From positions 86,070 through 150,069 of the forward strand of contig JAGOVG010000001.1 in the NCBI GenBank assembly GCA_018060845.1: a DNA stretch of 64,000 nt, read 5' to 3'. A program made the translations under genes and the position numbers. The DNA comes from Candidatus Woesebacteria bacterium (GTDB taxonomy: Bacteria; Patescibacteriota; Microgenomatia; UBA1400; UBA12108). Under the pieces are notes generated by a model. It worked only from the letters and a program-made list of their open reading frames with translations, was not told the DNA's origin and did no database searches. Shown one piece after another: positions 22,808 through 60,592 of the stretch (within the stretch, counting starts at the first letter, position 1; each line of letters opens with the position of its first letter).

Positions 22808-25147
22808 ATGACAATGGCAAAGAACTTTGATCACACGGCAGTAGAATCCCAGATTTATGATGAGTGGGAGAAGTCGGGGGCTTTTCAGCCTCGTGAATCC
22901 GTAAACCCGTCTAACCGTAAATCCGTTAATAAACCTTTTACCATAGTGCTCCCTCCCCCTAATGCCTCTGGCAAGATGCACATGGGGAATGTACTGATGA
23001 TTGCGATAGAGGACTTGATGATCCGCCACCACCGAATGAAGGGTGATCCAACCCTTTGGATCCCAGGAACAGACCATGCTGGGTTTGAGACGCAGATCAC
23101 CTACGAGCGAGAGCTAAAGAAACAAGGAAAGTCACGGTTTGAGTTTGACCGCAGTACTCTATACCAAAACATCTGGGAATTTGTGCAGAATAATAAGAGT
23201 CAGATTGAGGGACAGATCAAACAGATGGGTGCCTCAGTTGATTGGAGTCGCTACACCTTTACACTCGATCCACACGTAATAGAAACGGTTTATACAACAT
23301 TTGCCAAGATGTATAAAGAGGGATTGGTTTACCGTGACAACTATATGGTTAACTACTGCCCCAAATGTGGGACGACTTTTGCTGATCTAGAGATACTGCA
23401 CGAAGAGAGAGTGGGGAAACTTTATTATATTCGTTATGCCGTAAATCCGTTGTCCCGTAAATCCGTAAAGACAGAATATATCCAGGTAGCGACAACGAGA
23501 CCTGAAACGATCATGCTAGATACTCATATTGCGGTGAATCCTAAAGATAAAAAGCGAGCAAGTTGGATCGGAAAAAAGGTGATTAATCCCCTAACGAATA
23601 CCGAGATGGAGATAATCGGCGATGAGTTTGTGGATCCTAAGTTTGGGACAGGGTTTGTTAAGTTAACACCTGCTCATGACAAGAATGATTACGAGGCTGG
23701 CAAGAAACATGGATTGCCATTTATTGTGGGCATTGGGATGGATGGGCGGATGACTTCTGCAGCTGGCCGCTGGGCTGGCAAAACTGTGTTTACTGCAAGA
23801 GAAGAAGTGGTCAAGGAGCTAACTGAAACAGGGGCGATCGAAAAAGTAGATGACAAATATAACCAAAGTGTCACGGTGTGTTACAAGGGTGGCCACGATA
23901 TAGAGCCAATGATGCTGCCCAACTGGTTTGTAAAAGTTGAGTCACTCAAAAAACCTGCGCTTGAAGCAGTGACTAGTGGGAAAGTAAAGATTTATCCCAA
24001 GTGGCGAGAGATAACCTATACCAAGTGGATGGAGGAGATGCATGACTGGCCCATTAGTCGACAAGTGGTTTGGGGGATCAGGATACCAGTGTGGTACGAG
24101 GTCGGAAAATCCGAAAATCAGAAAATCCAGATAACTTTCTTAAATAAGGAGAAAAATGTAGTGAGTGGCACGATAGGTGAACTGCTTGCAACATATAGTT
24201 TTGAAGAAATACGGGACGGTCTGCAGACACTGATTGCACCAGCTGGGTGTGAGATGGTGGTGTCGGCGACTAGTCCAGGTGAGGGATGTCTGCAAGAAAC
24301 AGATACTTTTGACACCTGGTTCTCTTCTGGACACTGGCCACTAGTTACGCTTAAATATCCCGACTCAGACGATTTTGCCAAGTTCTACCCCACCTCAGTA
24401 CTAGAGACTGGATGGGAGATCATCCGGTTCTGGGTGTCACGCATGATTATGTTTGGGATCTACCTGACCGGCAAACCTCCATTTGAGTATGTCTACTTAC
24501 ATGGACTAGTTAGATCGCTCGATGGACGCAAAATGAGCAAGAGCCTGGGCAACGTAATAAACCCCGACGAATACATGGAGAAGTATGGAGTGGATGCTCT
24601 GCGAATGGGGCTAATATCAGGTACTGCAAATGGTAAGGATTTCGCTTTCCCCAAAGATAAAATTATCGCTTACCGCAACTTTGCTAACAAGCTCTGGAAT
24701 ATGGCACGTTTTTACCACATGATGGTAGACCCCACTTCGTCCCGCGAGGGCGGAACTTCGTTAGGGGCAAGGGAAATTAAGTGGTACGAGCCAGGGATGG
24801 AGGGGTTAACAACCAGCGACACTGAGATCATGAGCAAGTTAAACGACACGATAAAAATGACTGATGAGCTACTAGAGAAGTTCCGCTTTGCGGAGGCAGC
24901 TGAGACGATTTACCATTTTATGTGGGATGAGGTGGCGGCAAAGTATCTAGAAGAAGTAAAGAATCGAGAAGATCAGGATATTGCCCTGACTGTCCTTAGA
25001 CATGTACTACTAACAGGCCTCAAACTACTGCATCCATTTATGCCGTTTGTAACAGAGGCGATCTGGAAAGAGATGCCAAGGAAATACAATGACATGTTGA
25101 TAGTTTCGAAGTGGCCCTCCTACACTCAGGCACCGACGAGTAAATGA
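22808..25147 (+). CDS. valS: Valyl-tRNA synthetase (compact form)
   Basis: PPPNASGKMHMGN (HIGH region, ValRS-type PPPNxTG), VATTRPETIM and KMSKSLGN. At 779 aa it lacks a long C-terminal coiled coil. Confidence 0.8.
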   Translation: MTMAKNFDHTAVESQIYDEWEKSGAFQPRESVNPSNRKSVNKPFTIVLPPPNASGKMHMGNVLMIAIEDLMIRHHRMKGDPTLWIPGTDHAGFETQITYERELKKQGKSRFEFDRSTLYQNIWEFVQNNKSQIEGQIKQMGASVDWSRYTFTLDPHVIETVYTTFAKMYKEGLVYRDNYMVNYCPKCGTTFADLEILHEERVGKLYYIRYAVNPLSRKSVKTEYIQVATTRPETIMLDTHIAVNPKDKKRASWIGKKVINPLTNTEMEIIGDEFVDPKFGTGFVKLTPAHDKNDYEAGKKHGLPFIVGIGMDGRMTSAAGRWAGKTVFTAREEVVKELTETGAIEKVDDKYNQSVTVCYKGGHDIEPMMLPNWFVKVESLKKPALEAVTSGKVKIYPKWREITYTKWMEEMHDWPISRQVVWGIRIPVWYEVGKSENQKIQITFLNKEKNVVSGTIGELLATYSFEEIRDGLQTLIAPAGCEMVVSATSPGEGCLQETDTFDTWFSSGHWPLVTLKYPDSDDFAKFYPTSVLETGWEIIRFWVSRMIMFGIYLTGKPPFEYVYLHGLVRSLDGRKMSKSLGNVINPDEYMEKYGVDALRMGLISGTANGKDFAFPKDKIIAYRNFANKLWNMARFYHMMVDPTSSREGGTSLGAREIKWYEPGMEGLTTSDTEIMSKLNDTIKMTDELLEKFRFAEAAETIYHFMWDEVAAKYLEEVKNREDQDIALTVLRHVLLTGLKLLHPFMPFVTEAIWKEMPRKYNDMLIVSKWPSYTQAPTSK
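22897..22928. repeat. CCGTAAA-type heptamer micro-array, in-frame within valS (encodes NPSNRKSVN)
   Basis: ATCCGTAAACCCGTCTAACCGTAAATCCGTTA. Confidence 0.6.
23439..23470. repeat. CCGTAAATCCGT heptamer micro-array, in-frame within valS (encodes NPLSRKSVK)
   Basis: CCGTAAATCCGTTGTCCCGTAAATCCGTAAAG. Confidence 0.6.
24104..24130. repeat. GAAAATC(C/A) tandem heptamer x3 within valS
   Basis: GGAAAATCCGAAAATCAGAAAATCCAG encodes GKSENQKIQ. Confidence 0.5.
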
Positions 25148-45974: not shown

Positions 45975-45997
45975 CATAAATCTCAAATCTTAAATTC

Positions 45998-47212
45998 TCA
46001 AATTCTCAAATGGGAATCTTGAGTTCTGTGTGAATAATACAGGAGAGAGATAAAAATGAGAAGCTCGGTAACACCAGTAATAATAGCTGCAGCAACTACT
46101 CCATGGTGGGGGATAGCCCAGAGGTTGGCGGAGACGTTTAGGAGTGCGGCGATTATGTATATTTTTAAGACTAAGCCATCTTTGGACTTGGCCACAAGAT
46201 CCCACATGAGTGGTGCGGTTAGGTAGAAGAGTGGGAGAGAGAGCGAGAGTATGCGTAGAGTGGTTATCGAGAGACCCAGCTCTGGCTTGATATAGATTAT
46301 GAGAGGAGCCAGGACGTAGGTAGCAATACCAGCGAGGAAGCCGAGGGAGCCGAGTGTTTTTAGGGTAGGAATGAGCAGACTCTCTTTGTTTTTGAGCATG
46401 AGAGGGTAGAGAGAGTTCATGACAAAAACAGGCAGAACTAGGATTACGTCAAAAATGCGGTAAGCAAAAGCATACTGCCCAACCTCGCTACTAGTGCGAA
46501 AAACACCCAGGAGAATAGTGTCCACTTTGCTACTTAGGATACTAAAGATTAGGATGGCGCCCAGAGTAGAAGCGCGAAGAAGTGTTGGCACTACCTCCCG
46601 AAGATCACTAATCTGGATGTCTTTGAAGAGCAATCTGGGAAGTAATAAGAATGTTGAGACTGCCATTACAAAATACCCAAAGGTAATTGAGAGAGTAAGG
46701 CTCGGGAGAGTAGGGGATGAGCTTAGGTAATATAGCGTTAAGATGGTTGTCACTATAGTGCCGAGAATTACTGAGATTGTGGAGCGCCAATAATTCATGC
46801 TGTACTGAAAATAAGCATTGCCCGAGGTATAAATACTCTGGAATAGTATACCTATACTTGCTACCCAAAACAGCGACTTGATCTCTGGACTATAACCCCC
46901 AGGGAGTAGAAATACGAATGTGTTAAGCACCATGATCGCAACGAGTGCGAGCGCTAGTCGGGTAAGCATCACTCGCCGCGTTAACTGAAGCATCGAGGAT
47001 ACCCCTGTAGCCCTACGAACTGCGTCGGCATTTAGCCCAAAATCTATTACAGTAAAGCCTAGTGCGACGAGAACTAAGATTTTGCTCAAGTCTCCATACA
47101 GATAGAGTCCGGCGATTCTGATGGTAAAAAAGGTGGTAAGTAAGGTCAGGCCTGCCCCAAAGAACTTGGCGGTTAGCTGGGCTAGGGTGTTACTCGCGAT
47201 GTTTTTGAACAT
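45998..47212 (-). CDS. Polysaccharide biosynthesis/flippase (Wzx/MOP-like) membrane protein
   Basis: 404 aa, about 12 TM, N-terminal MFKNIASNTLAQLTAKFFGAGLTLL typical of Polysacc_synt family. Confidence 0.6.
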   Translation of the reverse strand: MFKNIASNTLAQLTAKFFGAGLTLLTTFFTIRIAGLYLYGDLSKILVLVALGFTVIDFGLNADAVRRATGVSSMLQLTRRVMLTRLALALVAIMVLNTFVFLLPGGYSPEIKSLFWVASIGILFQSIYTSGNAYFQYSMNYWRSTISVILGTIVTTILTLYYLSSSPTLPSLTLSITFGYFVMAVSTFLLLPRLLFKDIQISDLREVVPTLLRASTLGAILIFSILSSKVDTILLGVFRTSSEVGQYAFAYRIFDVILVLPVFVMNSLYPLMLKNKESLLIPTLKTLGSLGFLAGIATYVLAPLIIYIKPELGLSITTLRILSLSLPLFYLTAPLMWDLVAKSKDGLVLKIYIIAALLNVSANLWAIPHHGVVAAAIITGVTELLIFISLLYYSHRTQDSHLRI

Positions 47213-48428
47213 GGGAGTAGTTTACTACTTTGAGATAGAGTAAGAGGATAAGTAATCCCTGTGGAGAAGTCAGAAGGTAATGATCGAGGAGAAGAAGAGG
47301 AAATAATGGGAGATAATCGTAAAGCCGTATAGCCGTATAGCCGTATAGCCGTATTAAATAAATGATTGATAGGATCCCAGCCAAGCCAAACCAGGAAACG
47401 AAGAGGGTAAAGCTATTGTGGTCGGGCTGGAGGAGTCTGAAAGTAGTGTTTAGTTGAGGGTAAGAGGCAATACTAGCTTGAGCTCCTGTACCAAATATCG
47501 GGTAGTTAGCGATAGCTTTTAGTGAAACAGATTGCAGCGAGAGGCGCTCGGATAGGGATAGATCAGCTCTCTCGGGAACAACCAATGACCAATAACCAAT
47601 TGCTAGTGAAAATAGGATTGCAAAATACAGGGCGCGGACTCGGAGAGATTTGAGCATATAAACTGGGATGATAATGCCAAACAATGACAAGAGAGCCGAT
47701 CTACTCTGGGTTAGCAACGCCCCTAGAATAGTTATTAAGAAATAACTGTAATTAATTACTATATTTTTACTAAACCGAAGAATTATGAGGAAGGTAATGA
47801 CTAGCCATCCAGCGAGGACGTTGGGGTGACCAAAAGTACCATAGGCGCGTAGCACTACCTGGTCCATAAACATGGCCAAGGCGACCCCAGGCTGGCCCAC
47901 AGATACCATCCGCTCGCCTAGGTAGTAGAGAGGTCCCTGAATAGAGCGACCAAGCCATACTTGGGTGACTGAAAGTGAGAGTTGAAAAAGCGAAGCGAGG
48001 AACAAACTAGTGGTTAATAGCTTTTGATTAATAATCAATGAGAATGAAGAAAAAAACGAAATATAGAGCAAGAGATGAAGAGACCAGGAGAGGGTGGAGA
48101 GAGGGTTAATACTAAAGATAAGGTTGGATAAGAGAAGAATAATAAAATATGGTGCGCCGTAAATCCGTAAACCTGCCTGCGCAGGCAGGCCCGTAAATCT
48201 GTTTAGTGATAAGTAAGATATTATTAATAGGTCGAGGAAGTAGAGGGTGGGGGAGAGATAGTCGACCCGGACCCCATAGATAAGGGACGAGCTCGGCCAG
48301 AAATGCAAGCCCAACTGGGTCGGGATGAGAAAAAGGATAAGAAAGAGTACGACCCTCTTAGTTTTTTGGAGCCAAGATGAGACGGCGATCGACCCCTTGT
48401 CCCTCGGAATAAGTTGTGAGCGTTTCAT
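47190..48428 (-). CDS. O-antigen ligase/polymerase-like (Wzy_C-like) membrane protein
   Basis: Polytopic with an extracytoplasmic loop YPIFGTGAQAS. The 5' end overlaps jag, so the true start is probably internal. Confidence 0.4.
   Translation of the reverse strand: MKRSQLIPRDKGSIAVSSWLQKTKRVVLFLILFLIPTQLGLHFWPSSSLIYGVRVDYLSPTLYFLDLLIISYLSLNRFTGLPAQAGLRIYGAPYFIILLLSNLIFSINPLSTLSWSLHLLLYISFFSSFSLIINQKLLTTSLFLASLFQLSLSVTQVWLGRSIQGPLYYLGERMVSVGQPGVALAMFMDQVVLRAYGTFGHPNVLAGWLVITFLIILRFSKNIVINYSYFLITILGALLTQSRSALLSLFGIIIPVYMLKSLRVRALYFAILFSLAIGYWSLVVPERADLSLSERLSLQSVSLKAIANYPIFGTGAQASIASYPQLNTTFRLLQPDHNSFTLFVSWFGLAGILSIIYLIRLYGYTAIRLYDYLPLFPLLLLDHYLLTSPQGLLILLLYLKVVNYSHVQKHRE
47318..47356. repeat. 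CCGTATAG tandem octamer array (x3-4) in-frame at the 3' end of the ligase-like gene
   Basis: CGTAAAGCCGTATAGCCGTATAGCCGTATAGCCGTATTA encodes IRLYGYTAIRLY on the minus strand. Confidence 0.7.
48157..48205. repeat. CCGTAAATCCGTAAA micro-array flanking an 18-bp palindrome, in-frame in the ligase-like gene
   Basis: CCGTAAATCCGTAAACC-TGCCTGCGCAGGCAGG-CCCGTAAATCTG encodes RFTGLPAQAGLRIYG on the minus strand. Confidence 0.65.
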
Positions 48429-50425: not shown

Positions 50426-51772
50426 ATGGATGCTACCTCAGTATGGAGAGCGGTATTAACCGATCTAGAACTTACATTGTCTAAGACGTATTTTGCTGGA
50501 TATATCAAACCTTTATCGCTCATCTCATTAGAACAAGAGGGTGGTCGCGTAACCGCAACCATATTGTCTCCCACCAAATACCACGTCCAGATGATGGATG
50601 AAAAATATGGGAAGCACGTAATAAAGGCGATTGAGAGAGTAGTTAACAGCCCATGCACCATTAAGTACGAAATAGGCAAGGAGGGGGGAATGGAGCAGAC
50701 TGGCTCTATGCCACTATTTCAGCCGGCTCCCAAAGTAAGTGCTCCGATAGGGAGCGGATCACACAACCTTAATCCAAGGTTAACTTTTGACACTTATATT
50801 GTTGGTTCTTCGAACAACTTTGCATATGCTGCAGCACAAGGAGCGGCCAAGAGTCCTGGAACGAGATATAACCCTTTGTTTATTTATGGCGGAGTAGGAC
50901 TTGGTAAGACCCACCTTATGCATGCCATAGGTCACGCCGTGTACGCAGACCATCCAGACTGGGACATTATGTATATCTCGGCAGAGACCTTTGGGAGCGA
51001 TTTGATTGCGAGCTTACAGAACAAGAGAACGGCGGCGTTTAAAAAGAAGTATCGTGCGCCAAACCTACTACTAATCGATGACATTCAGTTTATTGCCGGC
51101 AAAGAATATATACAAGAAGAGTTTTTTCACACCTTTAACGAGTTATATATGTCTCAAAGACAGATTGTCCTCACATCTGACAGACCCCCACAAGAGATCT
51201 CACGACTAGAAGAGCGGCTCTCCTCCCGATTTATGGGTGGACTCATGGTGGATGTACAAAGCCCTGACTTTGAGACAAGAACTGCGATTTTGACGCAAAA
51301 ATGTATTGTGCTAGGACTCGAGGTTTCGCCAGACCTAATTGCACTAGTTGCCGAGAAGGCGGTGGGTAATATCCGTGAGCTAGAGGGAACTCTCCAAGCA
51401 ATAATTGCCAAGTCACATTCAGAAAAGAGACCAATAGATCAAGACCTGATTAGAGAAAACTTTGGAGCATCGTCTGAGCGGCGAAATCACCGGATTAGGC
51501 CACAATCAGTAATAAATAAGACTGCTCAATATTTTAGTTACAAAGTAACAGAGTTAACGGGGGCGAGCCGCAAGGCACCGCTGACAGCGGCAAGGCACAC
51601 TGCGATGTATTTGTTATATGAAGAGTTGTCACTACCATACGTGCAAATAGGGGAGCTGTTTGGCGGGAGAGATCATACAACCATAATCCACGCGGTTGAA
51701 AAGATTAAAGAAGAGTTAAAAACTAATCCTCAACTCTCAAAGACTCTGGCAGACATAAGACATGATTTATGA
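50426..51772 (+). CDS. dnaA: Chromosomal replication initiator protein DnaA
   Basis: AAA+ Walker [14 protein letters not shown], Walker [11 protein letters not shown]-terminal DnaA-box-binding HTH ([11 protein letters not shown]). Confidence 0.93.
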
Positions 51773-52013: not shown

Positions 52014-53117
52014 ATGAAAATAGAAATCTTACAAGAAGAGTTATTAAAAGGCATGGCCGTTGTAATGAGAGCGGTTTCGAACCGTACCCAGCTACCAGTT
52101 TTATCTTCTATTAGGATTGAGGCTAAGCCAACGGAGATCGTTCTTTCGGCGACTGACCTAGAGATAGGGATCAGGTTAGTCATATCTGCAAAAGTTGAGG
52201 AAGTAGGAGTTTTTGCAGTACCTGCAAAAACCTTTAGCGAACTACTCTCTACTCTCTCGCCAGGCAAACTCTCGATGGAGCTAAAAGAGATGGTATTGAC
52301 TATAAAGTCAGGAAGTTTTAAGGGCAAGATAACGACTGTCGACGCATCCGAGTTTCCGGTGCTACCCACAATGAAAGAATCTTTGATTGAAATGTCTTCG
52401 AGTGAGTTATCTCAGGGTATTTTGAATGTGGGCTTTGCTAGCGCCAAGGATTCCCTACGTCCCGTCTTAACTGGCGTGCTTATGGAGGTCTCACAGAGTC
52501 TGCGATTGGTAGCGACCGATGGATTCCGCCTAGCGGTAGCTACGGTCAAAATAAAAGGCTCTACAGCGACCCAGGGACTATCACTACTAGTTCCGGCACG
52601 AGCACTTTTTGAGTGTGGCAAAATTATCAAAGAGGGAGTGATTAAAATAGGATACCTACCAGAATCTAAGCAGGTATTGTTTGAAGGGGAGCAGTTGTTG
52701 TTTATTACTCAGATAATAGAGGGCAACTTTCCTGACTACAATAAAATCTTGCCCAAAGAGTTTGTGGAGAGGATAACTCTATCCAGAGAAGAGCTTCTGG
52801 GTGCTGTAAAAACAGCGCTTGTTTTTGCGAGAGATAACTCAAATATGATGAAGTGGACGGTTACACGTGGCAAGCTATCGGTAGCTGCTAGCTCGACAGG
52901 AAGTGGGGAGGGCTCGATTGAGGTGGGAGCCAAGACGGAGGGTGAGGAATCGCTAGAGGTTATTTTTAACGCAAAGTATGTGATGGATTATCTACAGCTA
53001 TTGAGCACAGAGTCGATCTGGATTGGGCTTGGTGGTAAGCTGGCACCAGGAATGATTGCGGAGAGTGACGCGGGTCGCGAAAATACTTTTTATGTAGTGA
53101 TGCCGATAAATGCGTGA
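52014..53117 (+). CDS. dnaN: DNA polymerase III beta subunit (sliding clamp)
   Basis: 367 aa, three-domain clamp, MKIEILQEELLKG...VMPINA. Confidence 0.9.
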   Translation: MKIEILQEELLKGMAVVMRAVSNRTQLPVLSSIRIEAKPTEIVLSATDLEIGIRLVISAKVEEVGVFAVPAKTFSELLSTLSPGKLSMELKEMVLTIKSGSFKGKITTVDASEFPVLPTMKESLIEMSSSELSQGILNVGFASAKDSLRPVLTGVLMEVSQSLRLVATDGFRLAVATVKIKGSTATQGLSLLVPARALFECGKIIKEGVIKIGYLPESKQVLFEGEQLLFITQIIEGNFPDYNKILPKEFVERITLSREELLGAVKTALVFARDNSNMMKWTVTRGKLSVAASSTGSGEGSIEVGAKTEGEESLEVIFNAKYVMDYLQLLSTESIWIGLGGKLAPGMIAESDAGRENTFYVVMPINA

Positions 53118-53168
53118 TACTGGACAATCGGAAAACTCGGGGTGTCGGCTGGTCGGCGATTCAGTAGA

Positions 53169-55052
53169 TCAGATAGTTGGTTTATCAGGTGGAGTCGGTG
53201 GAGTATTGAGTTTTTGGGCGAGGGTAACCTGAGCTTGTTTGATTGCCTGAGCCTCGGCTTCTTCTTTTTTACGAAGAGTCTCTCTAGGATCGGTGGTAAT
53301 GAGCGCGTGTTCTTCGGGGGACGCGACGACTCGCATGGCAACGTGGTTTTGGCCGGCGAAGAATAGAGACTCCCCCACCTCGGCAGTGAGGAGTAGGTGA
53401 CGCTCACCCTGTGAGAGATAGAAGACGTTAGCTAGTTTTTCAATAGCACTAGTGCTTTGTTTCATTAAAACCTGAATACTGGCGTTACTAACAATAGCCT
53501 TCCCGTGATCGTCTTTTAAGAAGTCTTCGACATCTTGAGTAATGGTAGTTAGACCCAAGAAATATTTGCGAGCCCGTTTGGCAATGCCATAGAGGAAAGT
53601 GGCGGAGTCCTCGTTTTTCATAAGATACCAGGCTTCATCAACCACCAAGAGACGACGCTTTAAATCTCTTTTTACCTTGGTCCAGATATAGTCGAGAATA
53701 ATGAAGATGGCGGTAGGGCGGAGCTCATCCTGAAGGTTTTTAATACCAAAGACAGTTAGCTGTTTGCCAAAGTCCACATTACTTTTTTGGGAGAAAATAC
53801 CCTGAAAACTACCCTTAACATATTTTTCGAGGCGGTCGGCTAGGCCGCGAGCTACCGCTTCTTCCATTCCAACTAGAGCTTTATAGAGATCTTCCATCAG
53901 GGGTGGTTCATTTTTATGAGTAGCAGGATCACGATTTATGCCTTTCATTTGATAGGTCATGACAAGAGCGCGGTCGAGTAGGGCCTCTTCTTGGGCAGTC
54001 ACGTCGCCGAGCATGATTTTGAGTAGTGAGTGGAGCGAGATAATTTTCATAGCCAGTTCGTTTTCGTCAGGCTCGGCAAGTTGAGGGAGCTCAAAGGGGT
54101 TAATACGATTGGGGCTAGTAAAACTAAAGTCGATATAGGTACCGTTTACGGTCTGGGACATTTTACGGTACTCGTCTTCGGGGTCGATAATGATTACCTC
54201 GGTCTCAAATAGTAGTGAGCGGAGGATCTCTAGCTTGACCATGTAACTTTTACCAGAGCCAGACTTAGCAAAGACAACCATGTTGGCATTCTCGAGACTA
54301 AAACGGTCAAAAACCACAAGACTATCGTTGTGTTCGTTGATCCCGTACATAATGCCTTCGTTGGCGGTTAACTCACTGCTAGTAAATGGGAAGGTGGTCG
54401 CTAGGCTGGTCGTGTCCATGTTGCGGTTGATTTTGAGGAAGTCTTTACCCATAGGGAGAGTGGTTTTGAAGCCGTCTTCGATCTGGAGAGTGGCGGTCTT
54501 GGCTACGATAAGGAGAGCTCCTAGAGTTGATTTAATATGATTGGTAACTTTGTCGAGCGCGTCTTTTTTGTCGTCGCGAATAGTAATGTAGAGACCAAAC
54601 TGGAAGAAACGTTCGGCGCCTTTGGCGAGTTGTTCTTGGAGACTACGTGCATCTTCTAGTTTGACCTGGGTATCAATATTGATAATCTTGCCTCGTTGAA
54701 TATCACCTTGTAGCTCCGCCTCCATCTCGGCAATCTTGCGTCTTAGATCCTCAATAACCCCCTTGCCATCGACGGGGTAAATAAACATTGAAATGGAGAG
54801 GGAGTGGGGGAAGTTGATGAGGGGAGAGAGCCAGTTGGCGTTGACGAAGCGGGGGTAGCCGGCGACAAAGAGAGTGCGGTAGTAGGTGTCGTTAATCTTG
54901 ACGTCTGACCAGTCAACTTCGATTGCCTCTGGTGCAATTATATCTTTGACGTTGGTGGTGCCAGTTGAGAGGACTTGGACGGCGGCAGGAACTCCGGAAT
55001 TAGCGTCTTCGGTCGGTTTCTTTTTGCCAGCAAAAGGAAAGGGCAAGTTCAT
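53169..55052 (-). CDS. VirB4/TrsE-like type IV secretion (conjugal transfer) ATPase
   Basis: Walker A FAKSGSGKSY, Walker B LLVVDEAWYLM, IIIDPEDEY, Gram-positive VirB4-like architecture, 627 aa. Confidence 0.75.
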   Translation of the reverse strand: MNLPFPFAGKKKPTEDANSGVPAAVQVLSTGTTNVKDIIAPEAIEVDWSDVKINDTYYRTLFVAGYPRFVNANWLSPLINFPHSLSISMFIYPVDGKGVIEDLRRKIAEMEAELQGDIQRGKIINIDTQVKLEDARSLQEQLAKGAERFFQFGLYITIRDDKKDALDKVTNHIKSTLGALLIVAKTATLQIEDGFKTTLPMGKDFLKINRNMDTTSLATTFPFTSSELTANEGIMYGINEHNDSLVVFDRFSLENANMVVFAKSGSGKSYMVKLEILRSLLFETEVIIIDPEDEYRKMSQTVNGTYIDFSFTSPNRINPFELPQLAEPDENELAMKIISLHSLLKIMLGDVTAQEEALLDRALVMTYQMKGINRDPATHKNEPPLMEDLYKALVGMEEAVARGLADRLEKYVKGSFQGIFSQKSNVDFGKQLTVFGIKNLQDELRPTAIFIILDYIWTKVKRDLKRRLLVVDEAWYLMKNEDSATFLYGIAKRARKYFLGLTTITQDVEDFLKDDHGKAIVSNASIQVLMKQSTSAIEKLANVFYLSQGERHLLLTAEVGESLFFAGQNHVAMRVVASPEEHALITTDPRETLRKKEEAEAQAIKQAQVTLAQKLNTPPTPPDKPTI

Positions 55053-55221
55053 ATGGATTTAGTATAACGCATTAATTAGACTGAGTGTCGCGATTTTGCA
55101 GTCCTCACAGCTATCTGACGTATCAGAGGAGACGCTCCGGGCTGAAAATCATCGCCACTCAGTCTTTGTAAATAACTTTCTTAGCAATACTTAGAGAGAT
55201 GGCGGTAGTTATGTATGGCCA

Positions 55222-55266
55222 GGCCTGCGCTAAATTTTTCTTTGTGAAACTACGTCTACGCCGACA
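55222..55266. repeat. Conserved ~45-bp intergenic element, copy A (upstream of the VirB4-like gene)
   Basis: GGCCTGCGCTAAATTTTTCTTTGTGAAACTACGTCTACGCCGACAC is about 85 percent identical to copy B. Confidence 0.55.
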
Positions 55267-55274
55267 CACAAAAA

Positions 55275-55913
55275 CTATTTAGCAATATTTGGGGCGACGA
55301 CAGGTGTTTCGTAATCTGAGGCGGTCGTGAATTTTTGACCTTTAACGGTTGAATTATAGTAACCGTGGAAGAGTTTCATGAGGTTCTGGCTATTTAACTG
55401 CTGGGCGGTTAAACCAATCCTAGTTAACTGCTTGATAATATGGTCTCTTTTTGGCTCGAGGTCGGCCTTGGCGCGACTTAGGAGTTCTTCGGTTACCTCA
55501 ACTTTGCCTGACAGTGTGACCATTTGGTAGGAGACGATGATATAGAATTTTTTATCGAGCACATTTTGCTCTTGGATGGTGGTCTCGATAAAGTTCCTAT
55601 ACTGCGACATGCGGGTTTTCATGGTTTCGTCTTTGAGTTTCTTTTCCTGAGTAACCAGGAGCTCTAGGTAACTACTGATGTCTTTTTTCTCGGATTTGAT
55701 TACCATCTGGACGGGGAAGCTAAGTGAGTTGAGGAGGCCGGCATACGCGTAGATGGTCGCATCCTGTTCTTCTTCGGAGAGGAGACCAAAGTTGATGGCT
55801 GAAGTTTGGATTACGACGCTTATTAGGCCACCGCGGAGGACCACCACATCATCTTGAATGGTTTCGACCTCGAGATGATCTTGGGTTGTTGCGACGATGA
55901 TTGAGTCAGACAT
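55275..55913 (-). CDS. Hypothetical T4SS-associated protein
   Basis: 212-aa ORF between PrgI-like and VirB4-like genes. No recognised motif. Confidence 0.35.
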   Translation of the reverse strand: MSDSIIVATTQDHLEVETIQDDVVVLRGGLISVVIQTSAINFGLLSEEEQDATIYAYAGLLNSLSFPVQMVIKSEKKDISSYLELLVTQEKKLKDETMKTRMSQYRNFIETTIQEQNVLDKKFYIIVSYQMVTLSGKVEVTEELLSRAKADLEPKRDHIIKQLTRIGLTAQQLNSQNLMKLFHGYYNSTVKGQKFTTASDYETPVVAPNIAK

Positions 55914-56008
55914 CTTTTTAGTATATCAGCTTCGGTTCGGTGCGTTTCACGCGAAAAAGCGGTCTGACTGCGTCTGGTGTCGCAGCGACCTCGAGTTCGG
56001 CCTACCCG

Positions 56009-56053
56009 GCCTGCACTAAATTTTTCTTAGTGAAATCGCGCCTCGCCGGCCCT
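56009..56053. repeat. Conserved ~45-bp intergenic element, copy B (upstream of 55275..55913)
   Basis: GGCCTGCACTAAATTTTTCTTAGTGAAATCGCGCCTCGCCGGCCC. Confidence 0.55.
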
Positions 56054-56057
56054 GCTA

Positions 56058-57080
56058 TTATCCTGTGGCCTGTATCTCGAAAGGTTGGATAATAGTGTCG
56101 TTGATAACTAGTTGCTGAGCGGGGAAGGTGTGACCATCTGACTCGACTTCGAGGCGGTAGGTCCCAGGAGATAGAGGGGTGCTAGTCGCAAACTGGCCGA
56201 GTGCGTTGGTTTTCATGGCGCGGGCTGGGACACCAGTTGAATCTAGTACCTGAACTATCGCACCCTCGACCAACTTGCCTGCTGGGTCGGTTGTGATCCC
56301 AACAATAAGATTGGGTGAGCGAGGTGGGACGGGGAGATTAATTGATTTGAGTTTGGTGGTGGCTTTGGTTTGGGGAGCTGGTGTGGCTGCTATGGGCGCG
56401 GCAGAAAAGATGAGATTGTCTGGAATTGACGACTCTTGTGGTTTGTCTGACTTTACCACTGGTTTGTCGACGACGGTCGGCTGGACTGGGGGAATCACGA
56501 CAGGAGTAGCTTTGGTCGGGGGCGGGGCAACTGTGTCTTCTACTGCTTTGAGTTTGCGTACAGTGACACCAGGCTTGTCAAAAGTAATTTCTGGTTTAGG
56601 GGTCGAATTAACTGGGGCAGATGGCATAGTAGTAAAAATGGAATTAAGGGCTTTGAGTTGCGAATTTTCTCCTTCGCTATAATCGGAGGGTGCTATAGTA
56701 GTGGATTTGATTGTGGGAGCCTTGATGGTTTTGGTGACTGTGTTGGTTGGGGCTATCTGATGAGCCGTAAAGGTAAAAATGTTAGGGATTTTGTTAGTTT
56801 TTTTCCAGGTGAAACGAGTGGGTTTGTAGATAGCGTGTACAAAATTAATAATCCATTGATCGAGTGGGCGGTCTTCGATGGGGAAGAAAGCTAGGGCGAT
56901 ACCAAAAAAAACGGAGAGGAGAATCAGAGGTGCTTTAAAGATAAAGAGTAGGTTGCTACTGTAGAAAAGAAATGCGAGCACTAGTCCGGATGCTAGTTCG
57001 AGAAACTGTTTGAGAGTCATGTCTCCAACAAGACGGAACTGATACTGAGTGACGTTTTGGGGCACTGGATGCTGGTTCAT
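56058..57080 (-). CDS. PrgI-family (VirB3-like) membrane protein with C-terminal carboxypeptidase-regulatory-like beta domain
   Basis: N-terminus PVPQNVTQYQFRLVGDMTLKQFLEL plus two TM helices, typical of PrgI/VirB3 of Gram-positive T4SS. Pro/Thr-rich linker. C-terminal GAIVQVLDSTGVPA...GTYRLEV. Confidence 0.5.
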   Translation of the reverse strand: MNQHPVPQNVTQYQFRLVGDMTLKQFLELASGLVLAFLFYSSNLLFIFKAPLILLSVFFGIALAFFPIEDRPLDQWIINFVHAIYKPTRFTWKKTNKIPNIFTFTAHQIAPTNTVTKTIKAPTIKSTTIAPSDYSEGENSQLKALNSIFTTMPSAPVNSTPKPEITFDKPGVTVRKLKAVEDTVAPPPTKATPVVIPPVQPTVVDKPVVKSDKPQESSIPDNLIFSAAPIAATPAPQTKATTKLKSINLPVPPRSPNLIVGITTDPAGKLVEGAIVQVLDSTGVPARAMKTNALGQFATSTPLSPGTYRLEVESDGHTFPAQQLVINDTIIQPFEIQATG

Positions 57081-57125
57081 TAATACAGTATAAAGTACCG
57101 AGTAAAAAGTACCTAGTGTGCGAAG

Positions 57126-57731
57126 TTAGTTGGAGAAGGAGTAAGTGTGGCTATCTGGGTCTAGTCCATTTTCTTTGACCCAGTCCCTTAAAGAGTTGAT
57201 GATCTCGCTTCGTTCTTCGACCCCCTCTTTAAGAGTGATTTCGAATGCCATTGGGGATTTGTACATAACAGTAAAACCTGGTGCTTCGTAGGGTATTTTG
57301 GCGGCCAGAGGGTAATCGCGCGCAATCTCCTCTCCCACCTCTTGGGCGTGACGAGGATCGCTTTGTTGTGGTTTAACTGTATAGGTGAGAGATGCGATTG
57401 GATTATTTTGATAACTTATATTTAGTAAATACTGTGTGTTGATAAGGAGGTATTTTTTGGACTTAAGTATTACGCTACCATTCGATTTAAGAGATATATC
57501 CCAATCTTCTTCGGGAATGGAGTTCACTACGAGCTCGTCTGGGTTGATATCCTTATCAAACCTGAGTTGTATCTCGTCAAAATAATTAATAGAAGATCGA
57601 TCTTTGGGGGTGCTGTTTAGTAGAGATGGGGCGGGTGGGGTGGGGCGATAGAAAAGAGAAAATAGAAGTGTGGCTAGAGCTACAACACCAAGAGTAATTA
57701 GAGTTAATTTGTTGGTCAAAATTTTGTACAT
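57126..57731 (-). CDS. Membrane-anchored hypothetical protein (possible VirB8-like component)
   Basis: N-terminal TM helix plus about 170-aa periplasmic/extracellular domain. The VirB8 role is assigned from position only. Confidence 0.35.
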   Translation of the reverse strand: MYKILTNKLTLITLGVVALATLLFSLFYRPTPPAPSLLNSTPKDRSSINYFDEIQLRFDKDINPDELVVNSIPEEDWDISLKSNGSVILKSKKYLLINTQYLLNISYQNNPIASLTYTVKPQQSDPRHAQEVGEEIARDYPLAAKIPYEAPGFTVMYKSPMAFEITLKEGVEERSEIINSLRDWVKENGLDPDSHTYSFSN

Positions 57732-57745
57732 AGGTATATTCTAGC

Positions 57746-60592
57746 TTAGATTTTTTTTAGACACCCCGCGATTTTACTACTTAACCAAGTGCCGCTACCT
57801 GGGCCTCTTACAACGCCTGGACCTGCTCCGTTTGCATCGGATACTTGAGAGGTTGCACCACCATTCTTGATAAAGATTCCAGTGTGACCCCAAGTGCCAG
57901 TAGTATCGACAAAGAAGTCTCCTGGTGAGCAGCTGCCGACACCAAGAACAGGCTTATACCCGCTAGGAGGGTTAGATAATAGAGTTTTTGCATCTCCAAA
58001 GCCTGTGCCAGTGCCTCCGTTTGCAACATCGATCGCGACAATAAAGCCCACACACTGTAGGACACTATAGTTGGTGGCTGAATATTGTAGCGCTGCTAGG
58101 GAGCTCTGGGCCAATGTACTCGCCAACATACACTGCCAAGTAGACCCCTGAGCATTGCTAGCAGTTAATGGATTAATACTACATTTACTTAATATTTCGG
58201 CGATACAGGCTGCTGTTTGGATGCGAGAGTTGTTCTGACCTCCTCCCTCGCCTGAGTTACAGAGAATATTGCCGATAAATTCGCCCAGGCCTGAGTCTAA
58301 GTTTATACTAACATCGAGTCGAAAAGTGTTTTTTATGTTATTTTGAGTAAAACTGGTTATAAATGGCAAGCTCACACTTAGGACAAAGGCAACAAGCAAA
58401 TTGATGAATGCTCCAGAGATCAGTCCTGATACTGTAGTAAAAAATCCCAATATTGCCGCTGGAATACCAAGTAGTACTGCACCGATCGCAGCACCACCAA
58501 GTATTATGCTTTCACGAAAGTTGCTGTTTGATATAAACTCTTTTAGTAGCCCCCAACCTAGTTTGAATAGTTCAATGACTGTTTGAATAGCAAAAACCAC
58601 TGTTAATGCAATGCCCACACCCGACAGTGCAGAGAATAGTGCCAAGACAGTCTTTGACCCGGCGCGCGCTAGAGATCTCCCGCCCAATTTTAGTAGTAGT
58701 CTTGTGACAGTTCTTTTTACAGAAACTCCTGAATACTTAAAAACGGATGTAAGTCCGACCTTGGCTATCCCCCACTTGATTGCAGAACTCCAGGCTGCTT
58801 TGCGGATGTGTGCGAGAGCACCGTTATAGGTATATCCACCGAGCTCGTACTGTCTAAATGACCAGTTAACGAGAGAGCCAAAACCCGTACTAGTTTTTGT
58901 ACTAGATATTATGGATTTTACAGATGATTTTTTAAACTGTTTGAGCTGATCGGTAACCCATGGAAAAATCTTAAAAAGAGGGATCTTGGTGCCAGGAATA
59001 CTAAAATTAGTCGAAAACTCGTCCCACTTACTATATATAAACTCATGAAGTTTTTTGCCAGTAACAATGCTTTCAAAGTCAAACCACTTTTCCCAGCCCA
59101 ACCTCTGTGCCTCCGTTAATCCAGAGCGTAGTTCTAATACAAATCTTCCAAACTGAGTCCTTTTAAGTAGACGAGCTTGTTTTGGGGTTAGGTTCTTATA
59201 ATAATATTCGTAGTCGCTAAGCGATCTAATTTTTCTTATTTTTTGTATGTTGGGAGAAGGAGAATTTAACTCATGTTCTTCGAGTTGTTTGAGAGTGGTG
59301 AGTCTGCTATTACCACTTAGGTTGTTGGCTTGGTTATATTCGTTAATGAGCGAATTAGTCTCAAAACCTAGTTTTAGCTTTGATTTAAATGAATAAAATG
59401 GGTTTATTCCTAGTTTAATTAGTTTTAACTCAGCTCTAGTTAGTGCGTGACCGTTGACCAATAGAGACATCTCATTCTGTCTATATTCAATTACTGAATC
59501 GAGGCCTGTCTCTCTTAAGCTTTTTTTAATTAACAATAAAGTAGCAGCGTCTAGATTTTTTAACCCAAGTTTTTTTGAGACTTTTTTTGATGCCAGTATT
59601 AGTAGTTGGTCTGATGTAAGTTGTTGGGCAGAGGACATCGTGATCTCTGTAAGAATGCTCTCAGAGATAAGATCTCGTTCTTTTTGGCTAAGGTTGGGTG
59701 GGAGCGCTGACTTGATTTCTGATAGGAGAGCTTGTTGTCCAGGGATAAAATCGGTACTACTAGTGGATGCTGCAACCTGAGCTCTTTTATACTCAGAGAG
59801 GGGGGTAGAACTGTTGTCAAAGTATCCTACCTTAATCCTGTTAACATAATTTCTGACTAGTGTTCCGGCTTGTCTGTCATTAATAAAATTGAGAAGGCCC
59901 GATGCATCTGGATTTTCTTCTTTGATTATCTTGAATAGTTCCTTAGTAACTGCAAAGTCCCTTCTTTCGTCACTATCACCAACCGAACCGGCTGAGTACA
60001 GCCTATCAAAATTTTTACAGATGATTTGAGCAAGCAAAGTTTTCGTTAGATTGTGTTGATTTTGATCAAGGCCATTGGGAACTAGTGTGCTTAGAACATT
60101 ACCAGGTACACCAGATTGTGAATACCGAAGTAATTTAAAATAGAGCCGATTATACTCATCGAACGCCTTGCCGGTATCAAATCTAGAAGGTTGAGCTGAA
60201 TTTATTGACTGCTGTTGCTTGCGATAGGTTTCGAGGTTGCTAATCCTGGTTGCGTTGAGTAGTTTATGTGGATCAGCAATGCGGTTCGAGTATACTAGCT
60301 GTGCATATCTGGCAAACTCAGCAAAACTGTTAATTGATAATAATACTCTTTTATCTTTTGTTAGGAGATTTTCTGTTGAATCTAAATATTCAACTACCAT
60401 TTTTTTGGCTTCGTCGAGAGAGATATACTCTGGGCTTTGAGTAGAGGATGGCAGCTCGACCCCTCTACTACCAGCTGCAATCCTGCCTTGTGTTTCTAGT
60501 CCTGGTAGTAGGTAGTTTTCGATTAGATAGCGATCACAACCACCGTTTATTCGATAATAGCTAGTTTGGTTGAAGAGACTAGGGTTTGCCAT
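57746..60592 (-). CDS. Large T4SS-associated protein: N-terminal soluble domain, VirB6-like multi-TM region, C-terminal CHAP peptidoglycan hydrolase domain
   Basis: 948 aa. Cluster of 5-6 TM helices at aa 640-760. C-terminal CHAP-like Cys/His (LQCVGFIVAID ... GDFFVDTTGTWGHTGIFIKN). Confidence 0.55.
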   Translation of the reverse strand: MANPSLFNQTSYYRINGGCDRYLIENYLLPGLETQGRIAAGSRGVELPSSTQSPEYISLDEAKKMVVEYLDSTENLLTKDKRVLLSINSFAEFARYAQLVYSNRIADPHKLLNATRISNLETYRKQQQSINSAQPSRFDTGKAFDEYNRLYFKLLRYSQSGVPGNVLSTLVPNGLDQNQHNLTKTLLAQIICKNFDRLYSAGSVGDSDERRDFAVTKELFKIIKEENPDASGLLNFINDRQAGTLVRNYVNRIKVGYFDNSSTPLSEYKRAQVAASTSSTDFIPGQQALLSEIKSALPPNLSQKERDLISESILTEITMSSAQQLTSDQLLILASKKVSKKLGLKNLDAATLLLIKKSLRETGLDSVIEYRQNEMSLLVNGHALTRAELKLIKLGINPFYSFKSKLKLGFETNSLINEYNQANNLSGNSRLTTLKQLEEHELNSPSPNIQKIRKIRSLSDYEYYYKNLTPKQARLLKRTQFGRFVLELRSGLTEAQRLGWEKWFDFESIVTGKKLHEFIYSKWDEFSTNFSIPGTKIPLFKIFPWVTDQLKQFKKSSVKSIISSTKTSTGFGSLVNWSFRQYELGGYTYNGALAHIRKAAWSSAIKWGIAKVGLTSVFKYSGVSVKRTVTRLLLKLGGRSLARAGSKTVLALFSALSGVGIALTVVFAIQTVIELFKLGWGLLKEFISNSNFRESIILGGAAIGAVLLGIPAAILGFFTTVSGLISGAFINLLVAFVLSVSLPFITSFTQNNIKNTFRLDVSINLDSGLGEFIGNILCNSGEGGGQNNSRIQTAACIAEILSKCSINPLTASNAQGSTWQCMLASTLAQSSLAALQYSATNYSVLQCVGFIVAIDVANGGTGTGFGDAKTLLSNPPSGYKPVLGVGSCSPGDFFVDTTGTWGHTGIFIKNGGATSQVSDANGAGPGVVRGPGSGTWLSSKIAGCLKKI

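What the first reader, a model, noticed from the sequence alone, without database searches (positions are those of the whole stretch)
47318..48205. Same repeat family inside the O-antigen-ligase-like gene, including a palindrome-containing unit
At 48157-48205, CCGTAAATCCGTAAACC and CCCGTAAATCTG flank an 18-bp perfect palindrome TGCCTGCGCAGGCAGG, all in-frame (encoding RFTGLPAQAGLRIYG). At 47318-47356 CCGTATAG is repeated 3-4 times (IRLYGYTAIRLY). The palindrome plus flanking direct repeats resembles a miniature insertion footprint or a protein-binding site embedded in coding DNA. The varying copy number of the octamer suggests contingency-type (slipped-strand) variation of a surface-polysaccharide gene.
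Basis: seen in the sequence. Interest (0 to 1): 0.55.

Follow-up and report, generated by a model that had tools for sequence, protein, structure and literature searches.

The report
Tiny palindrome inserted into gene repeats
A membrane-protein gene of an uncultured ultra-small bacterium carries short 8-base repeats read in frame, and one repeat run was recently split by an 18-base perfect palindrome whose exact sequence recurs as an in-frame insertion in many unrelated genes across dozens of bacterial lineages, so it behaves like one of the smallest mobile DNA elements seen so far.

Summary
The Wzy_C/O-antigen-ligase-like gene (47190-48428, minus strand) holds two 8-bp tandem arrays, both read in frame. 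One is (CGTATAGC)x4.6 at 47318-47354. The other is three CCGTAAAY units at 48157-48198, split by a perfect 18-bp palindrome, CCTGCCTGCGCAGGCAGG (48172-48189).

The same octamer occurs twice in ValRS, on the opposite coding strand, so the repeat is a DNA-level feature.

The palindrome is a clean 18-bp insertion with no target duplication. Two close relatives have the uninterrupted three-unit array.

The exact 18-mer occurs at least 125 times in reference genomes (scan truncated). Most copies are in low-GC Patescibacteria of many classes, and flanks are unrelated. About half lie inside ORFs, mostly in the frame giving LPAQAG, including UvrD, DnaG and SOD, where the peptide falls in alignment gaps. 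It is about 19-fold enriched inside short tandem arrays.

Slipped-strand phase variation is not supported. Copy number is identical in four orthologues and all reading frames are intact.

The best reading is a miniature, probably trans-mobilised palindromic insertion element that landed in a dispersed tandem-repeat family. The mobilising mechanism is unknown. I found no paper containing the sequence.

The parts
47190..48428 (-). Wzy_C / O-antigen-ligase-like membrane protein gene (412 aa as the longest ORF; public gene calls start 38 codons later). It hosts both repeat sites.
   Evidence: ORF list. Pfam PF04932 at E=2.6e-9. 736 homologues, mostly Microgenomates/Patescibacteria. Identical gene in NCBI GCA_020049755.1 contig JAHZTO010000034.1.
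48172..48189 (.). PAL: the perfect 18-bp palindrome CCTGCCTGCGCAGGCAGG, inserted in frame. It adds LPAQAG between two Gly codons, in the loop before the third hydrophobic segment.
   Evidence: Single copy in the window. Clean 18-bp indel against L001 and L133. At least 125 exact copies in other genomes. 7-bp stem with a 4-nt loop, -6.5 kcal/mol as ssDNA. The peptide sits at residues 81-86, just before hydrophobic segment 87-114.
48157..48198 (+). Three-unit octamer array CCGTAAAT CCGTAAAC CCGTAAAT (ATTTACGG on the coding strand), interrupted by PAL. It encodes RFTG...LRIYG.
   Evidence: The uninterrupted array is present in relatives L001 and L133 and absent in L132.
47318..47354 (+). (CGTATAGC)x4.6 octamer array (CTATACGG on the coding strand). 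It encodes IRLYGYTAIRLY in the last inter-helix loop, upstream of the invariant DHYLLTSPQG motif.
   Evidence: TRF score 67. Same copy number in window, L001, L132 and L133. The orthologous site carries arrays of other units in more distant homologues.
22892..22930 (+). Same octamer family (CGTAAATC-like, about 5 degenerate units) in the ValRS gene, read on the other strand and frame (RESVNPSNRKSVN).
   Evidence: There is a 21-bp excess and a locally diverged patch relative to the 88%-identical homologue L131.
23439..23469 (+). Same octamer family (CCGTAAAT x about 4) in ValRS, encoding AVNPLSRKSVK.
   Evidence: The patch is lineage-specific relative to P0121/L131 and P0125.
24102..24127 (+). 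Weaker period-8 array (GAAAATCC x3) in ValRS. Its membership of the family is uncertain.
   Evidence: The encoded KSENQKIQ is shared with close homologues.
45981..46011 (+). Period-8 array (TCTCAAAT x4, i.e. ATTTGAGA on the minus strand) at the flippase stop / RNase H start. The same unit forms in-frame arrays in Wzy homologues L004, L005 and L133.

Best explanation
Two layers of selfish or mutational DNA are embedded in frame in tolerant loops of a membrane-protein gene.

Layer 1 is a lineage-wide family of short dispersed tandem arrays. Units are 8 bp here (ATTTACGG, CTATACGG, ATTTGAGA) and 7 bp in other Patescibacteria. The arrays occupy variable loops of proteins irrespective of strand and frame. 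They turn over in unit sequence but are held at frame-preserving lengths by purifying selection.

Layer 2 is an 18-bp perfect palindrome, PAL (CCTGCCTGCGCAGGCAGG). It is a miniature, non-autonomous insertion element that entered the three-unit ATTTACGG array recently, in this lineage only.

PAL has these properties:
- It inserts precisely, without target-site duplication.
- It prefers a purine|pyrimidine junction.
- It is over-represented inside short tandem arrays, and possibly at hairpin tips. These are DNA that readily becomes single-stranded or slipped.
- It survives in coding DNA because it is 6 codons long and stop-free in every frame.
- Selection then favours the frame that yields the bland hexapeptide LPAQAG.

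What is shown: the insertion status, the recurrence across phyla, the frame bias, the enrichment in arrays, and the lack of copy-number variation.

What is inferred: that PAL is mobilised in trans by a hairpin- or ssDNA-specific enzyme (for example a HUH/Y1-type transposase, as for REP/IS200-IS605), and that the arrays arise and are homogenised by slippage or gene conversion. The gene is not a phase-variable contingency locus.
For: Insertion status in the window:
- PAL is a clean 18-bp indel. Relatives L001 (about 90% aa identity) and L133 (84%) have the intact three-octamer array.
- A second, independent filled/empty pair exists in a different context of the same loop. L008/L009 carry PAL with one mismatch and L005 carries it with three. 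L010 lacks exactly 18 bp.

Recurrence:
- At least 125 exact copies occur in 120 reference-genome stretches, and the scan was truncated.
- 95 of them lie in loci below 50% GC, where the chance rate is 3e-13 to 5e-12 per position.
- By my count of record titles, 71 of 120 loci are named Patescibacteria of more than 20 classes. Carriers also include Bacteroidota, among them cultured Litoribacter ruber, and the cultured isolate Rosettibacter primus.
- Flanks are unrelated apart from 78% pyrimidine at +1.
- Within 882 kb of carrier loci there are only 5 one-mismatch copies and no two- or three-mismatch copies.

Coding copies:
- 68 of 125 copies lie in ORFs of at least 150 codons.
- Frame use is 50 LPAQAG: 12 PACAGR: 6 CLRRQ. 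R^Y target preference does not explain this (chi-square p=1e-11).
- In UvrD, Mn/Fe-SOD and DnaG the hexapeptide falls in gaps of 6, 8 and 9 residues against solved homologues.
- Two SOD genes carry PAL at different positions.

Array association: 8 of 125 copies sit inside short tandem arrays against 4 of 1200 random positions.

The arrays are a DNA-level feature:
- The same unit is read on both strands and in different frames in Wzy and ValRS.
- Period 8 is selectively enriched.
- The orthologous loop carries arrays of different units in different lineages at nearly the same length.

No phase variation: copy number is equal in four orthologues and all frames are intact.
Against: - No mobilising enzyme was identified. 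All-against-all clustering of ORFs in 145 PAL-bearing stretches found no gene family recurrently linked to PAL.
- Only one copy lies in this 64-kb window, so activity in this genome is low. The genome-wide count here is unknown.
- Enrichment at hairpin tips is weak (7% against 3%).
- Some hits in high-GC genomes are probably native or chance sequence, for example the SulP motif AGLPAQAGLY in L028. In viral contigs PAL gives 25 hits, while three composition-matched control palindromes give 1, 11 and 1.
- PAL lies in the same Wzy loop in two lineages. This could also reflect ancient presence with repeated precise loss.
- Only four close orthologues were available to test copy-number variation, and no read-level data were examined.
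Confidence: 0.7

Rival explanations
1. Contingency locus. The 8-bp arrays change copy number by slipped-strand mispairing and switch the surface-polysaccharide gene on and off.
For: The unit length is not a multiple of 3. A change of one or two units in the 47318-47354 array frameshifts the tail and removes the invariant DHYLLTSPQG motif. Loss of one unit next to PAL truncates the protein at 102 aa. Surface-polysaccharide genes are classic targets of phase variation (established knowledge).
Against: Copy number is identical in window, L001, L132 and L133; only point substitutions differ. All orthologous ORFs are intact through the arrays. Homologues down to 55-65% identity keep the same loop length. 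The arrays have only 3-4 units. The same units sit in essential ValRS, where on/off switching would be lethal.
Confidence: 0.05
2. PAL here is ancestral sequence, or a locally generated palindrome (for example by template switching), that relatives lost. It is not an inserted mobile element.
For: Short palindromes are deletion-prone. GG/CC microhomology at the junction could mediate precise loss. A related 18-mer sits in the same loop of more distant homologues.
Against: Both the nearer (L001) and the farther (L133) relative lack PAL while sharing the array, so one gain is more parsimonious than two identical losses. The copy is perfect although the flanks differ by about 6-16%. The identical 18-mer occurs in more than 100 unrelated contexts in other phyla, which local mutation cannot produce.
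Confidence: 0.1
3. PAL is a functional cis-element, such as a protein-binding site or an RNA/DNA hairpin that modulates transcription, translation or mRNA stability. On this reading it is kept for that function rather than as selfish DNA.
For: It is perfectly symmetrical like a dimer-binding operator and forms a stable hairpin. Its sequence is nearly invariant between phyla. Some non-coding copies sit at the tip of terminator-like inverted repeats.
Against: Presence or absence differs between close relatives with no other change. The contexts have nothing in common: loops of UvrD, DnaG, SOD, PolA, GatB and aaRS, tRNA-like sequences, and spacers. The strong bias to one reading frame indicates selection on the translated peptide, not on a site. 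There is no Rfam match.
Confidence: 0.1
4. PAL is an assembly or library artefact.
For: Most carriers are metagenome-assembled genomes, and palindromes can arise from chimeric reads.
Against: It is present in two assemblies of this gene (the NCBI MAG and a Logan assembly). Mutated copies are present in independent assemblies from different projects (L005, L008, L009). It occurs in cultured isolates and in data from many laboratories. It is always internal to contigs. An artefact could not show the observed reading-frame bias.
Confidence: 0.02

Closest known systems
Cyanobacterial small dispersed repeats (SDR4-6) and STRR heptamer arrays of Nostoc/Anabaena (Elhai et al. 2008, Genome Res 18:1484). 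The reference was verified in the reference list of PMC3116915. The paper itself is not held, so the details below are from memory.
   Same: Both are very small (about 20-nt) hairpin-forming elements with the hallmarks of non-autonomous mobile DNA. Both are found nested in short tandem repeats, in other repeats and inside genes. In both, related genomes show filled and empty sites and the transposase is unknown. Here the association with tandem arrays was measured: 8 of 125 copies against 4 of 1200 random positions.
   Different: PAL is shorter (18 nt against 21-27) and a perfect palindrome with no orientation. It has a low copy number per genome. Its sequence is identical across many phyla, whereas SDRs are confined to a cyanobacterial clade. 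The host arrays here are octamers. Sequence relatedness to SDRs could not be tested.
Rickettsia palindromic elements (RPE)
   Same: Both are palindromic selfish DNA inserted in frame into unrelated, often essential protein-coding genes, adding a peptide in tolerated positions (review PMC10969869).
   Different: RPEs are about 100-150 bp, encode a conserved peptide of about 30-50 aa, and are confined to Rickettsia. PAL is 18 bp, adds 6 aa, and occurs in many phyla.
REP / REPIN elements mobilised by RAYT transposases
   Same: Both are short palindromic repeats thought to be mobilised in trans by a hairpin-recognising HUH/Y1 transposase without target duplication (PMC3116915).
   Different: REPs are extragenic, imperfect and 20-40 nt long. 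They carry a conserved 5' tetranucleotide, occur in hundreds of copies and flank a RAYT gene. About half of PAL copies are intragenic, the element is perfect and low-copy, and no linked gene was found.
Mobile GC clusters of yeast mitochondrial DNA (own knowledge)
   Same: Both are short GC-rich palindromic elements scattered in AT-rich genomes. Both show presence/absence polymorphism and are occasionally found inside coding sequence.
   Different: GC clusters are 30-50 bp, mitochondrial, and associated with short target duplications.
Simple-sequence contingency loci of Haemophilus, Neisseria and Campylobacter (own knowledge)
   Same: Both involve a tandem repeat, with a unit length not divisible by 3, inside a surface-polysaccharide gene.
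   Different: No length polymorphism was found, the tracts are very short, and the same repeat family occurs in an essential gene.

Membership tests
Simple-sequence contingency (phase-variation) locus | Intragenic tandem repeat whose unit length is not a multiple of three | tested here: met
   8-bp units inside the ORF.
Simple-sequence contingency (phase-variation) locus | Repeat-number polymorphism between strains or reads, including out-of-frame alleles | tested here: not met
   Same copy number in four orthologues. All frames are intact. Read-level data were not available.
Simple-sequence contingency (phase-variation) locus | Long, highly homogeneous tract that makes slippage frequent | tested here: not met
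   3-4.6 units only. L133 carries point substitutions within the tract.
MITE (miniature inverted-repeat transposable element) | Terminal inverted repeats | tested here: inconclusive
   PAL consists only of two 9-bp inverted halves with nothing between them.
MITE (miniature inverted-repeat transposable element) | Target-site duplication flanking the element | tested here: not met
   Both filled/empty comparisons show a clean 18-bp difference with no duplication.
MITE (miniature inverted-repeat transposable element) | Size of about 50-500 bp and a related autonomous IS with the same ends | tested here: not met
   PAL is 18 bp. No recurrent neighbouring gene was found in 145 PAL-bearing stretches. 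Nothing transposase-like lies between paired copies.
REP / REPIN-RAYT | Extragenic location | tested here: not met
   68 of 125 copies lie inside ORFs of at least 150 codons. The insertions fall in UvrD, SOD and DnaG.
REP / REPIN-RAYT | Imperfect palindrome with a conserved 5' tetranucleotide, high copy number, and a flanked RAYT gene | tested here: not met
   PAL is a perfect palindrome. Flanks are conserved only as R/Y. There are 1-7 copies per genome in the truncated sample. No linked gene was found.
Rickettsia palindromic elements | In-frame insertion into unrelated protein-coding genes | tested here: met
Rickettsia palindromic elements | Length of about 100-150 bp encoding a conserved long peptide, confined to the Rickettsia lineage | tested here: not met
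   PAL is 18 bp and adds 6 aa. The carriers are Patescibacteria, Bacteroidota and others. RPE features are taken from PMC10969869.
Cyanobacterial SDR elements / STRR arrays | Very small hairpin element found nested in short tandem arrays and in genes, with filled and empty sites in relatives | tested here: met
   Hairpin. Array enrichment. Genic copies. Empty sites.
Cyanobacterial SDR elements / STRR arrays | Sequence and structural homology to SDR4-6, and cyanobacterial host range | not testable with these tools
   The defining paper is not held. No cyanobacterial record appears among the 120 loci.

The most novel reading that the evidence does not exclude
PAL is a previously undescribed, cross-phylum family of ultra-small (18-bp) symmetric mobile elements. 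It would be the smallest known element with a fixed sequence. An unidentified trans-acting enzyme that targets single-stranded or slipped DNA (tandem 7/8-mers, hairpin tips, the 5' regions of tRNA genes) would spread it. It is built to be harmless in coding DNA, being six codons long and stop-free in all frames. It would therefore be a continuing source of loop insertions in essential proteins of Patescibacteria.
Probability: 0.4. Interest if true: 0.8.

Novelty: new variant of a known kind. Interest (0 to 1): 0.66.

Why it matters
An 18-bp sequence that stays letter-perfect from Microgenomates to Saccharibacteria to Bacteroidota, and that appears as a polymorphic in-frame insertion in genes such as uvrD, dnaG, sodA, polA, gatB and aminoacyl-tRNA synthetases, implies a sequence-specific insertion machinery that has not been described. 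It would extend the lower size limit of mobile DNA.

It would also help explain why proteins of candidate-phyla-radiation bacteria are peppered with odd loop insertions. It gives annotators a simple marker (LPAQAG / CCTGCCTGCGCAGGCAGG) for recent insertions.

Two cultured carriers, Litoribacter ruber KCTC 22899 and Rosettibacter primus, make the question experimentally approachable.

For the gene in hand the practical message is negative. The repeats are not evidence of phase-variable surface polysaccharide.

Tried and rejected
- Exact-protein look-up of the 412-aa ORF failed because public gene calls use a later start. This was solved through homologue P0001.
- A metagenome scan anchored on both sides of the loop-1 array, meant to count alleles, found nothing.
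- A metagenome scan for (CCGTATAG)x3 returned 38 unrelated contigs and no orthologue. It gave no extra strain comparison, and no control octamer could be run.
- A search for a linked enzyme by clustering ORFs around PAL copies found only housekeeping families. The segments between paired copies hold ordinary genes.
- Viral contigs: 25 PAL hits against 1, 11 and 1 for control palindromes, mostly in high-GC contigs. This is too weak to claim a phage vector.
- GC skew gave no replication-strand information, because there is no sign change at dnaA. The same-strand orientation of all arrays was therefore left uninterpreted.
- Rfam found no match.
- Literature: no paper holds the 18-mer, its 14-nt core or LPAQAG. 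There were no hits for CPR plus octamer or palindrome terms. The Elhai 2008 paper is not held.
- The apparently truncated homologues P0008 and P0019 were suspected to be frameshifted at repeats. Both turned out to be intact ORFs with late start calls.
- A resemblance of CTGCC...GGCAG and CCGTATAG to the type I-F CRISPR repeat was considered and dismissed as coincidence. There is no array and no spacers.
Full report
**1. What is in the window**

The region 47190-48428 (minus strand) is a 412-codon ORF. It matches Pfam Wzy_C (O-antigen ligase family) at E=2.6e-9. It lies in a gene row typical of candidate-phyla-radiation bacteria: dnaA, rpmH, rnpA, yidD, yidC, jag, Wzy, a Polysacc_synt flippase, RNase H and DUF4012. 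The same DNA is in NCBI assembly GCA_020049755.1, contig JAHZTO010000034.1 (226.7 kb), and in a Logan assembly of SRR11088367.

- A period-8 array (CGTATAGC)x4.6 at 47318-47354, with the best TRF score in the window.
- At 48157-48198, the sequence CCGTAAAT CCGTAAAC / CCGTAAAT around a palindrome.

The real one is the perfect 18-mer CCTGCCTGCGCAGGCAGG at 48172-48189, the longest perfect palindrome in the window. I call it PAL below. The translations RFTGLPAQAGLRIYG and IRLYGYTAIRLY are correct.

**2. The octamers are a DNA-level family**

- CCGTAAAT is among the most over-represented octamers in the window: 6 observed against 0.45 expected.
- CCGTAWAB occurs 18 times against 8.6 expected, and 0 of 100 shuffles reach 18.
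- Clusters with 8-bp spacing occur at only four places. Two are in this gene and two are in valyl-tRNA synthetase (22892-22930 and 23439-23469).
- ValRS is encoded on the other strand. There the same DNA unit is read as ...SVNPSNRKSVN... and ...AVNPLSRKSVK.... One DNA unit read in different frames and on both strands means that no protein motif is being selected.
- Period 8 is the only strongly enriched tandem period among periods 5-12, both in the window and in loci of relatives. Period 7 comes second.
- In ValRS the arrays sit in locally hyper-diverged patches. An 88%-identical homologue lacks them, while the flanking DNA is 95-100% identical.
- In the Wzy family the first and last short loops are hot spots for such sequence.
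- At the orthologous C-terminal loop different lineages carry different units at nearly the same length: CTATACGG, CTTTACGG, CTTTACGA, AAATTGTA, or the heptamer TCTATCT. This pattern is expected if arrays are homogenised (concerted evolution) and selection allows only frame-preserving outcomes.

**3. Phase variation is not supported**

- A change of one or two units would frameshift the tail and remove the invariant DHYLLTSPQG motif. Loss of a unit in loop 1 would truncate the protein at residue 102. In principle, then, slippage could switch the gene off.
- However, four orthologous DNAs (window, L001, L132, L133; 84-100% protein identity) have exactly the same number of CTATACGG units. L133 differs only by point substitutions.
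- All of these ORFs are open throughout. The 'short' homologues are late start calls, not frameshifts.
- The tracts are only 3-4 units long, and the same family sits in essential ValRS.
- I could not examine reads, and a metagenome scan for further alleles found none.

**4. The palindrome is an insertion**

- L001 (ENA ERZ3602260, about 94% nucleotide identity) and L133 (GCA_964393925.1) both read ATTTACGG GTTTACGG GTTTACGG.
- The window reads ATTTACGGG + CCTGCCTGCGCAGGCAGG + TTTACGG ATTTACGG. This is a clean 18-bp difference, with no target duplication and three octamers in both states.
- Both the nearer and the farther relative lack PAL, so one gain in the window's lineage is the parsimonious reading.
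- A second filled/empty pair exists in more distant homologues, in a different local context of the same loop. L008/L009 carry CCTGCCTGCGCAGTCAGG and L005 carries a copy with three mismatches. L010 lacks exactly 18 bp.

**5. PAL is a recurrent, cross-phylum element**

Uniform-composition expectation is about 9. 95 copies are in loci below 50% GC, where the chance rate is 3e-13 to 5e-12 per position.

*Taxonomy.* By my count of record titles, 71 of the 120 loci are named Patescibacteria. They include WWE3, Microgenomates, Gottesman-, Woese-, Beckwith-, Shapiro-, Dojka-, Uhr-, Kaiser-, Nomura-, Yonath-, Zambryski-, Wildermuth-, Magasanik- and Staskawiczbacteria, Paceibacterota, Minisyncoccia and Saccharibacteria. 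About 15 loci are Bacteroidota, including the cultured Litoribacter ruber. The rest include the cultured Rosettibacter primus, and Proteobacteria and others. Some hits in high-GC genomes are probably native or chance sequence, for example a SulP motif in L028.

*Flanks and decay.* Flanks share nothing except a purine at -1 and a pyrimidine at +1 (78% Y). Within 882 kb of carrier loci there are only five one-mismatch copies and no two- or three-mismatch copies.

*Coding copies.* PAL is its own reverse complement and has no stop codon in any frame (from the sequence). 68 of 125 copies lie in ORFs of at least 150 codons, against 80% of random positions. Frame use is 50 LPAQAG: 12 PACAGR: 6 CLRRQ. 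The R|Y preference would predict 34% for the LPAQAG frame, so it does not explain the bias (chi-square p=1e-11). This points to selection on a translated peptide.

*Conserved proteins.* In UvrD, Mn/Fe superoxide dismutase and DnaG of different lineages the hexapeptide falls in gaps of 6, 8 and 9 residues relative to solved homologues. Two SOD genes carry PAL at different positions.

*Context preference.* 8 of 125 copies lie inside short tandem arrays, mostly heptamers, against 4 of 1200 random positions. That is the situation seen in the window. Placement at the tip of pre-existing inverted repeats is only weakly enriched (7% against 3%).

**6. Mechanism**

Shown:
- Precise 18-bp gain without duplication.
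- Recurrence of one exact sequence in unrelated contexts and phyla.
- Preference for R|Y junctions and for slippage-prone arrays.
- Survival in coding DNA with a frame bias.

Inferred:
- PAL is mobilised in trans by a sequence- or hairpin-specific enzyme acting on single-stranded or extruded DNA. A HUH/Y1 transposase of the REP-RAYT or IS200/IS605 type would fit the absence of target duplication.
- The arrays arise and are homogenised by slippage or conversion.

I found no linked gene. I also found no convincing phage reservoir: 25 viral hits against 1, 11 and 1 for control palindromes. The mechanistic step therefore remains a hypothesis.

As single-stranded DNA, PAL folds into a 7-bp stem with a 4-nt loop at -6.5 kcal/mol. 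Hydropathy places LPAQAG (residues 81-86) and RLYGYTAIRLY (360-370) in short loops between hydrophobic segments. This is consistent with tolerance of the insertions.

**7. Comparison with known systems**

- The nearest analogue is the very small dispersed repeats of Nostoc, which nest in tandem heptamer (STRR) arrays and in genes (Elhai et al. 2008). The reference was verified. The paper is not held, so the details are from memory.
- Rickettsia palindromic elements share the in-frame colonisation of genes but are about 150 bp long.
- REP/REPIN-RAYT elements share the hairpin logic but are extragenic, imperfect and high-copy.
- PAL fails the defining tests of a MITE (no duplication, wrong size), of REP (intragenic, no RAYT) and of a contingency locus (no length variation).
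- No paper in the library contains the 18-mer, its core or LPAQAG.

**8. Verdict**

- The 'contingency' idea is not supported.
- What is here is a recently inserted copy of an apparently undescribed ultra-small palindromic element, sitting in a dispersed octamer-repeat family.
- The element's biology outside this window is the interesting part. Its mobilising mechanism is unknown.

Noticed in passing
L048:6792; L037:1735; L052:372; L120:728; L104:6119; L130:538; L095:6202: In other Patescibacteria genomes, PAL often sits in a partial or duplicate 5' end of a tRNA gene next to an intact copy (tRNA-Gln four times; also Thr, Ala and Arg). In L048, removing PAL in silico restores a full tRNA-Gln for ARAGORN, with the insertion after nucleotide 10/11.
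   Followed up: partly
window 47318-47354 and the orthologous site in L004, L005, L007, L008: The same C-terminal loop of Wzy homologues carries a short tandem array in nearly every lineage examined, but with different units (CTATACGG, CTTTACGG, CTTTACGA, AAATTGTA, heptamer TCTATCT) at nearly constant length.
   Followed up: partly
L159-L196 (JGI metagenome contigs): (CTATACGG)n arrays of 3 to at least 10 units occur in 38 unrelated contigs of 33-70% GC, often next to variant units (CTATACAG, CTGTACGG, CTATATGG). No control with other octamers could be run, so enrichment is unknown.
   Followed up: partly
window 45981-46011: A (TCTCAAAT)x4 array, i.e. ATTTGAGA on the minus strand, lies at the flippase stop / RNase H start. 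The same unit forms in-frame arrays (FENLRIWDL...) in Wzy homologues L004, L005 and L133.
   Followed up: partly
window 24102-24127: A third period-8 stretch in ValRS (GAAAATCC x3, encoding KSENQKIQ) lies inside a clade-specific insertion domain. Close homologues share it, so it may be older or due to chance.
   Followed up: no
L004:10220-10320; L005, L008 and L010, Wzy loop 1: Loop 1 of more distant Wzy homologues holds larger nested inverted repeats translated in frame: GGGTCCGACCTG...CAGGTCGGACCC around CCCCGCTTAGCGGGG, and GAGGAGACTC...GAGTCTCCTC. Other homologues show peptides such as TRSDP, KVRPY and RSDL that suggest further small palindromic families.
   Followed up: no
L090:4948 and L088:7807: Superoxide dismutase genes of two Patescibacteria lineages carry PAL at two different positions. 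These are independent insertions into the same gene family.
   Followed up: partly
window 1-64000: GC skew stays positive on the plus strand across nearly the whole window, with no sign change at dnaA (50426-51772).
   Followed up: no
window 47190-47212: The Wzy stop overlaps the flippase start by 23 nt. The conserved C-terminal tail VVNYSH.Q..R. of Wzy homologues coincides with this overlap.
   Followed up: no
window about 52400-58300 (seen as L002:1-5146): Downstream of dnaN there is a cluster with PrgI-like, CarboxypepD_reg and DUF87/AAA_10/TraG-type ATPase genes, i.e. type IV secretion- or conjugation-like genes. It is conserved in L004.
   Followed up: no
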